This document shows positions 10,434 to 11,408 of a DNA stretch of 64,000 bases, piece by piece; position 1 is the first letter of the stretch, and each line of letters begins with the position of its first letter. Where the stretch lies: assembly GCA_000165345.1 (NCBI GenBank), contig CM000434.1:256001-320000 (forward strand), in the 5' to 3' direction. The translations under genes and the position numbers were made by a program. The notes under the pieces were generated by a model, which had not been told where the DNA came from, searched no databases, and worked only from the letters and a program-made list of their open reading frames with translations.

Positions 10434-11408
10434 TTACAACACGAATAAGGCTGCAAAGATTGCAAAAACGGAAGGAACGATGTATCTGAGTCCAAAAGCA
10501 GAGGAACCAGCATCCTTCAAAAGAACTGTGTTGTCCTTATCAACCAAGTCTCCGTTCTCATTCAACCTGTAGACACCATTGGTAGTGCCGCTGTTTGCGC
10601 CGGTATAGAAAGGTTTATCGTCTGCAACCAAACTGTACTTGTCTCTTTTAGATGCATCTTCGACGTTTGGTACAGCCACTTCAATTCTTTTACCACCATC
10701 AAGGGTAAAGGCAAACAAATCGACGGTTGCAGCAGCTTCACTGGTTTCCTCTGAGAGTGATCTTCTTGATCTTGATGAAGCCTGACCCGCAGATCCGCCA
10801 TTTTCAGTTGGACTACTTGAATTAGCAGAGAGAGTGCTGAAATCCTGACCGTTAACCTTGATTTTAACTGTATTATCACTCTTTTCAAAGGTTACAGATG
10901 TAACTTCACCAGAGATATATCTTGGTGCGGGATCTGTTTGGTCTTTTATAGGTGCATAGACGATAGTGTAGGCACCACACTTCAATGTCGCAGCTGGGGT
11001 ACCTTCTCCGAACCACATTACAAATGAAGTGCCGCATTCTTCTTTTGGAGTAGCTTCTATGGTTTCGGTAGTTGCGCCTTCACTTTGAGCTGGAGTAGTG
11101 GGTTGGGAAGCAGCACTAGTTTGGCCATCGTCTTCACTACCTTCCTCTTCAGAACCCTGGCTACCAGAAGCTTCAGTACCACTAGAATCTTGACTGCCTT
11201 CTGCGTCTTCTCCAGTTCTTGCCTTATTTGCTGGTGCGACGGTTGATGTTGATGATGATGATGATGATGATGATGATGATGATGACGATGACGATGATGA
11301 GCCCTCAACAGGAACATCCTTTAAAGTTCCTCTGAGTGGAACGGCTGGGGCTGAGAATACAGCGGAGACTATAACGGAGAGTAATACGATAATGAGCGAC
11401 AATCTCAT
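10434..11408 (-). CDS. gp60: gp60 / gp40/15 surface glycoprotein precursor (sporozoite surface antigen; GP40 + GP15). IIa-type allele.
   Basis: MRLSLIIVLLSVIVSAVFSAPAVPLRGTLKDVPVEG + poly-Ser + TSTVAPANK...; RSRR furin site between GP40 and GP15; hydrophobic C-terminal GPI signal (AFGLRYIVPSVFAIFAALFVL). This is the well-known Cryptosporidium subtyping locus (cgd6_1080 in C. parvum Iowa II as I recall). Confidence 0.95.
   Translation of the reverse strand: MRLSLIIVLLSVIVSAVFSAPAVPLRGTLKDVPVEGSSSSSSSSSSSSSSSSSTSTVAPANKARTGEDAEGSQDSSGTEASGSQGSEEEGSEDDGQTSAASQPTTPAQSEGATTETIEATPKEECGTSFVMWFGEGTPAATLKCGAYTIVYAPIKDQTDPAPRYISGEVTSVTFEKSDNTVKIKVNGQDFSTLSANSSSPTENGGSAGQASSRSRRSLSEETSEAAATVDLFAFTLDGGKRIEVAVPNVEDASKRDKYSLVADDKPFYTGANSGTTNGVYRLNENGDLVDKDNTVLLKDAGSSAFGLRYIVPSVFAIFAALFVL
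11244..11300 (-). repeat. gp60: gp60 trinucleotide microsatellite on the coding (minus) strand: TCA TCA TCG TCA TCG (TCA)x12 ACA TCA. That is 15 TCA, 2 TCG and 1 ACATCA, which is subtype IIaA15G2R1.
   Basis: Counted directly from the plus strand: gat/gac units 11250..11300 plus tgt-tga at 11244..11249. The translation gives 17 consecutive Ser followed by TST. Confidence 0.9.

What the first reader, a model, noticed from the sequence alone, without database searches (positions are those of the whole stretch)
10434..11408. gp60 hypervariable locus: IIaA15G2R1 allele read directly from the microsatellite
On the coding (minus) strand the repeat reads TCA TCA TCG TCA TCG (TCA)12 ACA TCA. That is 15 TCA, 2 TCG and one ACATCA, and it translates to 17 Ser followed by TST. 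This is the common zoonotic C. parvum IIaA15G2R1 subtype, the Iowa-II type, which effectively identifies the organism or strain. The locus also sits in a local GC-rich island (about 9.3-11.4 kb) compared with its flanks.
Basis: partly seen in the sequence, partly recalled or inferred. Interest (0 to 1): 0.5.

Follow-up and report, generated by a model that had tools for sequence, protein, structure and literature searches.

The report
Cryptosporidium parvum gp60, subtype IIaA15G2R1

Summary
The minus-strand ORF 10434..11408 encodes a 324-aa protein that matches Pfam GP40 (E 3.7e-114). A script counts TCA TCA TCG TCA TCG (TCA)12, which is 15 TCA and 2 TCG (17 Ser, 11250..11300), followed by one ACATCA (11244..11249). 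Under the published gp60 rules this is A15G2R1.

The protein matches cgd6_1080 of C. parvum Iowa II in length and in two mass-spectrometry peptides at the same residue numbers. All four standard gp60 typing primers match exactly. The first 20,012 bases of the window are 100% identical to the IOWA-43IA8 assembly, which the literature labels IIa-IOWA.

The GC-rich block is real and is the richest stretch in the window. It consists of two convergent coding regions, EMC4 and gp60. In gp60 the excess GC sits in codon positions 1 and 2, so it reflects amino-acid composition.

[quoted passage not shown] The window is nevertheless the Iowa II 2004 reference. Two ORFs near 48 kb match only Iowa II proteins EAK89807.1 and EAK89808.1 exactly.

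The locus is already known and of low interest.

The parts
10434..11408 (-). gp60 (gp40/15, cgd6_1080) coding sequence: a single exon of 324 codons plus TAA
   Evidence: ORF list. Pfam PF11025 GP40, E 3.7e-114, aa 119-282. Same length and peptide numbering as cgd6_1080.
11346..11408 (-). N-terminal signal peptide, about aa 1-21 (MRLSLIIVLLSVIVSAVFSAP)
   Evidence: Hydropathy above 1.6 for 15-residue windows starting at aa 1-11. Nearly invariant across gp60 homologues. The literature places Gp40 at aa 22-220. The cleavage position is taken from the literature and was not tested here.
11250..11300 (-). Serine microsatellite, 17 codons: TCA TCA TCG TCA TCG (TCA)12, that is A15G2
   Evidence: Script codon count; Tandem Repeats Finder; shuffle control 0/100. 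Mass spectrometry shows the peptide DVPVEG-S17-TSTVAPANK carrying 15-20 O-HexNAc.
11244..11249 (-). One copy of the IIa 'R' repeat ACATCA (Thr-Ser), giving R1
   Evidence: Script: one ACATCA directly after the Ser tract, followed by ACC GTC. Definition of R.
11049..11240 (-). Hypervariable region of gp40 rich in acidic residues, Ser, Thr and Gly (aa 57 to about 120). This is the part that defines subtype families.
   Evidence: The alignment of 10 gp60 proteins has almost no conserved columns and many indels here. The guide describes a downstream family-defining region.
10563..11054 (-). Conserved core matching the full Pfam GP40 model (aa 119-282), including the two invariant Cys residues (C125, C144)
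   Evidence: profile positions 1-164 of 164; invariant columns.
10761..10772 (-). Furin-like processing motif RSRR (aa 213-216) between gp40 and gp15
   Evidence: Motif located. SRSRRSL is conserved in 7 of 10 homologues. Cleavage by a furin-like protease is described in the literature. The observed gp15 N-terminus is E221, four residues after the motif.
10437..10748 (-). gp15 portion (aa 221-324), starting ETSEAAATVDLFAFTLDGGK
   Evidence: The peptide sits at aa 221-240, as in cgd6_1080.
10437..10499 (-). C-terminal hydrophobic tail (aa 304 to 324), the GPI-anchor addition signal
   Evidence: Hydropathy above 1.6 for windows starting at aa 304-310; almost invariant in homologues. The GPI anchor of gp15 is reported in the literature. 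The attachment site was not determined here.
11349..11372 (-). Forward gp60 typing primer sites (outer ATAGTCTCCGCTGTATTC at 11355..11372, nested TCCGCTGTATTCTCAGCC at 11349..11366)
   Evidence: Exact matches. Primer sequences taken from PMC7473207.
10470..10514 (+). Reverse gp60 typing primer sites (outer GGAAGGAACGATGTATCT at 10470..10487, nested GCAGAGGAACCAGCATC at 10498..10514)
   Evidence: Exact matches. In-silico amplicons are 903 bp (outer) and 869 bp (nested), against about 900 and about 860 bp in the paper.
9323..10012 (+). Neighbouring convergent gene for ER membrane protein complex subunit 4 (cgd6_1070). It is the other half of the GC-rich block.
   Evidence: Pfam PF06417, E 3.7e-32. 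Exact match to EAK89792.1, CAD98655.1, QOY40984.1 and WKS78214.1. GC 42.5%, GC3 0.43.

Best explanation
The region is the single-exon gp60 gene (also called gp40/15, cgd6_1080) on chromosome 6 of Cryptosporidium parvum, in the IOWA II reference sequence, with the typing allele IIaA15G2R1.

The gene encodes a secreted precursor with these parts:
- a signal peptide;
- a run of 17 serines, encoded by a TCA/TCG microsatellite, that is densely O-GalNAc glycosylated into a mucin-like stalk;
- a hypervariable acidic segment;
- a conserved core;
- an RSRR furin-like site, where the precursor is cut into gp40 and gp15;
- a C-terminal signal that gives gp15 a GPI anchor on the sporozoite and merozoite surface.

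The sequence features and their match to cgd6_1080 are shown here. Glycosylation, cleavage and anchoring come from the literature.

The number of serine codons most likely changes by replication slippage. The downstream segment most likely diverges under immune selection and recombination. Both are inferences resting on general knowledge and on the literature. These two kinds of variation are why the locus serves as the standard subtyping marker.

The local GC excess is a by-product of two adjacent coding regions. In gp60 it comes from a composition rich in Ser, Ala, Thr and Gly.
For: **Gene and protein**
- Pfam GP40 matches with E 3.7e-114 over the full model.
- The protein is 324 aa. DVPVEG-S17-TSTVAPANK lies at aa 31-62 and ETSEAAATVDLFAFTLDGGK at aa 221-240. 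These are the same residue numbers as the mass-spectrometry peptides published for cgd6_1080.
- RSRR lies at aa 213-216, and both termini are hydrophobic.

**Allele**
- The codon count is 15 TCA, 2 TCG and one ACATCA.
- All four standard gp60 primers match exactly, and the in-silico amplicons are 903 and 869 bp.

**Organism and strain**
- Window 1..20012 is 100% identical to CP029785.1 of GCA_031892065.1, which is IOWA-43IA8, called IIa-IOWA in a paper.
- IOWA II is reported as IIaA15G2R1.
- Nine of ten large ORFs in the window match Iowa II (EAK) proteins exactly. The tenth is listed for Iowa II only as a 590-aa model (EAK90122.1). One of the nine (48135..52595) and the adjoining ORF 46408..48012 match only Iowa II entries.

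**Hypervariability**
- In a related Cryptosporidium contig (L004) the gp60 CDS is 87.0% identical to the window, while its flanks are 97.2-99.3% identical. Its serine tract is (TCA)6.
- Serine tract length ranges from 6 to 17 across the homologues aligned.

**GC content**
- gp60 has GC of 0.49, 0.53 and 0.33 at codon positions 1, 2 and 3.
Against: - No named IIa GenBank reference such as AY262034 could be aligned directly. The protein database returned no full-length IIa cluster, and its best full-length hit was 76% identical. The IIa label therefore rests on identity to a genome that papers call IIa-IOWA, and on the cgd6_1080 peptides.
- The exact 324-aa product was not found by the cluster look-up. 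It was found on only one assembly in the gene-position index. This probably reflects different start-codon models in other annotations; one search shows a 590-aa versus 586-aa example of that.
- Slippage and immune selection as the sources of variation were not tested here.
Confidence: 0.97

Rival explanations
1. It is gp60 of family IIa but a different subtype. The reader may have miscounted, or applied the convention wrongly, for example by counting the TCA inside ACATCA (A16G2) or by seeing two R units (R2).
For: Naming errors of exactly this kind are documented in GenBank entries.
Against: The script count is unambiguous: 17 Ser codons (15 TCA, 2 TCG), then ACA TCA ACC. There is only one ACATCA unit and no ACA inside the tract. 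[quoted passage not shown]
Confidence: 0.01
2. It belongs to another gp60 family that also carries ACATCA after the serine tract, such as C. parvum IIl, IIy or IIz, or C. erinacei XIIIa, rather than IIa.
For: ACATCA is not unique to IIa. No named IIa reference sequence was available for direct alignment.
Against: The gp60 DNA and 20 kb around it are identical to IOWA-43IA8, described as IIa-IOWA. The peptides and residue numbering equal cgd6_1080 of Iowa II. The GP60 of the four IOWA II assemblies compared in that paper was checked there to be type IIa. Neighbouring proteins are exact matches to C. parvum Iowa II entries.
Confidence: 0.01
3. The repeat number is an assembly artefact. The microsatellite may have been collapsed or expanded, or drawn from a mixed oocyst population, so it would not be the true allele of the isolate.
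For: One paper describes an IOWA reference assembly as a hybrid of IIaA15G2R1 and IIaA17G2R1 material, and IOWA lines differ slightly in GP60. A short-read contig (L002) breaks at window position 11216, 28 bases short of the repeat array. The same window has a likely assembly error near 48 kb.
Against: The independently assembled IOWA-43IA8 chromosome has exactly the same sequence through the tract. Mass spectrometry of Iowa oocysts detected the peptide with 17 consecutive Ser. IOWA II is independently reported as IIaA15G2R1 by gp60 sequencing.
Confidence: 0.03
4. The window comes from some other IIaA15G2R1 isolate, such as a field or clinical isolate, and not from the IOWA lineage. In that case the allele would say nothing about strain.
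For: IIaA15G2R1 is the most frequently reported C. parvum subtype, and isolates sharing it differ at other loci. UKP4, UKP5 and UKP6 all carry it.
Against: ORFs 46408..48012 and 48135..52595, including a frameshifted junction, are exact matches only to Iowa II 2004 proteins EAK89808.1 and EAK89807.1. [quoted passage not shown]
Confidence: 0.04

Closest known systems
cgd6_1080, the gp60 (gp40/15) gene of Cryptosporidium parvum Iowa II, subtype IIaA15G2R1
   Same: Length is 324 aa. The 17 Ser + TST tract sits at aa 37-56, the gp15 N-terminal peptide at aa 221-240, the RSRR site is present, and the neighbouring genes match. As far as could be tested, this is the same gene.
   Different: Nothing detected. 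The Iowa II GenBank record itself could not be fetched for a base-by-base comparison.
gp60 of the current Bunch Grass Farms 'IOWA' line (IIaA17G2R1; assemblies GCA_019844115 and GCA_035232765)
   Same: Same family IIa and the same gene architecture. The lineage is closely related.
   Different: It has two more TCA codons, according to the literature. The BGF and ATCC proteins also differ from the window at aa 3, 10 and 383 of the 1486-aa ORF near 48 kb.
Other gp60 subtype families and species: the homologues P0008-P0016, including entries named C. parvum, C. tyzzeri and C. fayeri
   Same: They share the signal peptide, the serine tract position, the Cys-containing core, the SRSRRSL site, gp15 and the hydrophobic tail.
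   Different: Whole-protein identity in the multiple alignment is only 52-80%. Serine tracts are shorter (6-10 Ser), and the segment at aa 57-120 is heavily rearranged.

Membership tests
Cryptosporidium gp60 / gp40/15 glycoprotein (Pfam PF11025) | Match to the GP40 profile above the curated cut-off | tested here: met
   378.5 bits against a cut-off of 21; E 3.7e-114; profile positions 1-164 of 164.
Cryptosporidium gp60 / gp40/15 glycoprotein (Pfam PF11025) | N-terminal signal peptide followed by a poly-serine tract | tested here: met
   Hydrophobic aa 1-25 or so, and S17 at aa 37-53. The same layout appears in all the homologues aligned.
Cryptosporidium gp60 / gp40/15 glycoprotein (Pfam PF11025) | Furin-like cleavage into gp40 and gp15, and a GPI anchor on gp15 | not testable with these tools
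   The sequence motifs are present: RSRR at aa 213-216 and a hydrophobic tail at aa 304-324. The processing itself is known only from experiments in the literature.
C. parvum gp60 subtype family IIa | The region downstream of the repeat matches IIa references | tested here: met
   The test was indirect. The DNA is 100% identical to the IOWA-43IA8 chromosome, labelled IIa-IOWA in PMC12092579. IOWA II GP60 is stated to be type IIa. Direct alignment to AY262034 was not possible.
C. parvum gp60 subtype family IIa | ACATCA 'R' repeat immediately after the serine tract | tested here: met
   One copy at 11244..11249. Rule.
Subtype A15G2R1 | 15 TCA, 2 TCG, no TCT, one ACATCA, and no ACA ('r') inside the tract | tested here: met
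   Codon counter output: TCA 15, TCG 2, R copies 1.
Strain IOWA II (2004 reference assembly) | Sequence features found only in that assembly | tested here: met
   ORFs 46408..48012 and 48135..52595 equal EAK89808.1 and EAK89807.1. [quoted passage not shown]
Strain IOWA II (2004 reference assembly) | The gp60 allele alone is diagnostic of the strain | tested here: not met
   The same subtype is reported in unrelated UK isolates UKP4-6 and is the dominant subtype worldwide. IOWA-43IA8 shares the identical gp60.

The most novel reading that the evidence does not exclude
The GC-rich block may be more than a composition effect. EMC4, which is not a mucin-like protein, has the highest third-position GC of the 25 long ORFs in the window (0.43, against 0.18-0.35 for the others). 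It sits tail to tail with gp60. Together they could mark a small zone of GC-biased gene conversion at a recombination hotspot around gp60, which would fit the published discordance between gp60 and other markers. Nothing here tests this.
Probability: 0.1. Interest if true: 0.3.

Novelty: already known. Interest (0 to 1): 0.05.

Why it matters
The finding identifies the source of the window: Cryptosporidium parvum chromosome 6, IOWA II reference. That is useful context for every other finding from the same window. Biologically it adds nothing new. gp60 is the most widely used subtyping marker for this parasite, and IIaA15G2R1 is its most commonly reported zoonotic allele. The one practical lesson is that a gp60 subtype identifies the species and subtype family but not a strain.

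Tried and rejected
- **Protein database searches.** I searched with the whole protein and with the post-repeat part only. Neither returned a named full-length IIa sequence. The best full-length hit was 76% identical, so these searches could not settle the family assignment.
- **Exact-sequence look-up of the 324-aa product.** It was not in the clustered collection and was on only one assembly in the gene-position index.
- **Literature search by accession.** Searches for GCA_031892065 and for CP029780, CP029785 and CP029787 found nothing. The isolate name 43IA8 came from protein names and then from one paper.
- **Supplements of PMC8848321.** I searched them for a gp60 alignment to extract IIa references, but no sequence text was held.
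- **JGI metagenomes.** A DNA pattern spanning the repeat and a protein-based scan both found no gp60.
- **Rejected readings.** A miscount or convention error, a non-IIa family carrying ACATCA, a repeat-count assembly artefact, and a non-IOWA isolate were all considered and rejected. See the rival explanations.

Full report
**The observation**

The minus strand of 10434..11408 is an uninterrupted ATG-to-TAA reading frame of 324 codons. A script that splits it into codons finds a run of 17 serine codons at residues 37-53, window 11250..11300. The order is TCA TCA TCG TCA TCG (TCA)12, which is 15 TCA and 2 TCG. One ACATCA follows directly (11244..11249), then ACC GTC. The protein reads VEG-S17-TST-VAPANK.

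Tandem Repeats Finder reports a single period-3 array at 11244..11300 with 19 copies. It is the only period-3 array in the 64-kb window at score 60 or above. The perfect (TGA)12 core occurs once in the window and in none of 100 dinucleotide-preserving shuffles.

**What the gene is**

The protein matches the whole Pfam model PF11025, 'Glycoprotein GP40 of Cryptosporidium', at E 3.7e-114.

A mass-spectrometry study of C. parvum describes the Gp40/Gp15 precursor cgd6_1080. It reports a signal peptide, Gp40 at residues 22-220, Gp15 at residues 221-324, a tryptic glycopeptide (31)DVPVEGSSSSSSSSSSSSSSSSSTSTVAPANK(62), and the gp15 N-terminal peptide (221)ETSEAAATVDLFAFTLDGGK(240) (PMC5549699). Both peptides occur in the window's protein at exactly those residue numbers, and the total length is the same 324 residues.

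The RSRR furin-like motif lies at residues 213-216. Both termini are strongly hydrophobic, as expected for a signal peptide and a GPI-addition signal.

The four primers used worldwide for gp60 typing match exactly. They predict amplicons of 903 bp (outer) and 869 bp (nested), against the 'about 900' and 'about 860' bp quoted in a typing paper.

**Naming the allele**

The published rules say that TCA, TCG and TCT codons are counted as A, G and T. [quoted passage not shown] In C. parvum family IIa, R is the number of ACATCA units immediately after the tract (PMC12008548; PMC7034008). The second paper lists AY262034 as the IIaA15G2R1 reference. Applied, the allele is A15G2R1, with no interspersed ACA 'r' codon.

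**Family, species and strain**

I could not align a named IIa GenBank reference. The large protein database returned no full-length IIa cluster. Its best full-length hit was 76% identical, and the only 100% hit was a 206-residue fragment.

The family assignment rests on three other lines.
- The neighbouring gene EMC4 (9323..10012) is an exact match to C. parvum proteins of Iowa II (EAK89792.1), the Bankier chromosome 6 (CAD98655.1), IOWA-ATCC (QOY40984.1) and GCA_031892065.1 (WKS78214.1).
- Window 1..20012, which includes gp60, is 100% identical over 20,012 bases to CP029785.1 of GCA_031892065.1. NCBI calls that isolate 'Cryptosporidium sp. 43IA8'. [quoted passage not shown]
- IOWA II is stated to be IIaA15G2R1, and the GP60 of the IOWA II assemblies compared there is stated to be type IIa.

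**Does the allele identify the strain?**

Not by itself. IIaA15G2R1 is the most frequently reported zoonotic C. parvum subtype. Multilocus typing shows extensive heterogeneity within it. Three unrelated UK clinical isolates, UKP4-6, carry it. Conversely, the 'IOWA' line now sold by Bunch Grass Farms is IIaA17G2R1.

The strain can still be settled from elsewhere in the window. Of ten large ORFs looked up by exact sequence, nine equal Iowa II (EAK) proteins. The tenth is listed for Iowa II only as a 590-aa model, EAK90122.1. The 1486-aa ORF at 48135..52595 equals only EAK89807.1, and the adjoining 534-aa ORF at 46408..48012 equals only EAK89808.1. IOWA-43IA8, HLJ and C. hominis carry one fused gene of about 2060 residues there. 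ATCC and BGF carry different sequences. [quoted passage not shown]

**How the locus works**

Shown here is the anatomy of the precursor:
- a signal peptide;
- a 17-serine tract encoded by a microsatellite;
- a segment at residues 57 to about 120 with almost no conserved columns and many indels among ten gp60 homologues;
- a conserved core with two invariant cysteines;
- a conserved SRSRRSL site;
- a conserved gp15 with a hydrophobic tail.

Taken from the literature are the following points. The serine tract carries 15-20 O-linked HexNAc residues. The precursor is cut by a furin-like protease. gp15 receives a GPI anchor. Both products are immunodominant surface antigens of sporozoites and merozoites.

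Inferred are two further points. Codon-number changes arise by replication slippage in the TCA run. The downstream segment diverges through immune selection and recombination, as one typing paper states (abstract of PMC7724200).

Direct support for hypervariability comes from a related Cryptosporidium contig, L004. Its gp60 coding sequence is 87.0% identical to the window, while the upstream region, the intergenic spacer and the part of EMC4 on the contig are 97.2%, 99.3% and 98.7% identical. Its tract is only (TCA)6. Another contig, L002, equals the window over 11,216 bases except for two substitutions, both inside gp60. Both changes are G-to-T on the coding strand, one of them 64 bases from the contig end, so they may be errors.

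**The GC-rich block**

gp60 (45.0% GC) and EMC4 (42.5%) are the two most GC-rich of the 25 long ORFs in a window that averages 30.1%. The 2.1-kb blocks starting near 9250-9300 are the window's maximum. The block is two convergent coding regions separated by a spacer at 10013..10433 that holds most of the GC dip to 0.32.

In gp60 the excess lies in codon positions 1 and 2 (0.49 and 0.53), not position 3 (0.33). This reflects a protein that is 17% Ser, 10% Ala, 9% Thr and 8% Gly. EMC4 is different: its third-position GC of 0.43 is the highest in the window. I did not explain that.

**Verdict**

The locus is textbook material and its novelty is nil. Its value lies in identifying the window.

Noticed in passing
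window 47985..48170 (ORFs 46408..48012 and 48135..52595): [quoted passage not shown] IOWA-43IA8 annotates the fused gene as CPCDC_6g1251; ATCC and BGF name the 534-aa part 'armadillo-like helical protein'. The two ORFs match only Iowa II 2004 entries EAK89808.1 and EAK89807.1. This is probably an error in the 2004 reference, and it also marks the window as that assembly.
   Followed up: partly
window 16884..17047, inside ORF 15684..17288 (+): A 15-bp coding minisatellite of about 11 units, encoding EKE(K/R)L repeats in a 534-aa signal-peptide protein (EAK89794.1). C. hominis orthologues have one more unit (539 aa) and C. tyzzeri has fewer (527 aa). It may be a length-polymorphic marker close to gp60.
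   Followed up: partly
protein P0014 (matches window gp60 aa 119 to 324): A 206-aa fragment 100% identical to C. parvum gp60 is filed in NCBI as 'TPA: hypothetical protein SI937_004857, partial [Escherichia coli]' on a 621-bp contig. This looks like Cryptosporidium contamination in an E. coli assembly.
   Followed up: no
L002 (Logan SRR5007564), window positions 10877 and 11152: This contig equals the window over 11,216 bases except for two substitutions, both inside gp60 (D178Y and S86Y). Both are G-to-T on the coding strand, and the contig stops at 11216, 28 bases before the repeat array. They may be real polymorphisms or sequencing or assembly errors.
   Followed up: partly
L004 1025..1954 (Logan SRR18691161) and L005 49..1050 (SRR17070135): Two divergent gp60 alleles from public sequencing runs. 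L004 has (TCA)6 ACA TCG ACT and is 87% identical in the CDS, against 97-99% in its flanks. L005 has (TCA)8 ACA AAA and is about 84% identical overall. Species and subtype family were not determined.
   Followed up: partly
window 9323..10012 (+), EMC4: Third-position GC is 0.43, the highest of the 25 long ORFs in the window; the others range from 0.18 to 0.35. Unlike gp60, this cannot be put down to amino-acid composition.
   Followed up: no
window 22456..22530 (+): tRNA-Leu (anticodon CAG), the only tRNA gene that ARAGORN found in the window.
   Followed up: no
window 10434..11408 and the databases: The exact gp60 product is absent from the clustered protein collection, yet it is present on CP029785.1 in the gene-position index. 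No full-length IIa cluster was returned by either protein search. Four in-frame codons are open upstream of the ATG. Other annotations show start-model differences, for example 590 aa versus 586 aa, which may explain part of the discrepancy.
   Followed up: partly
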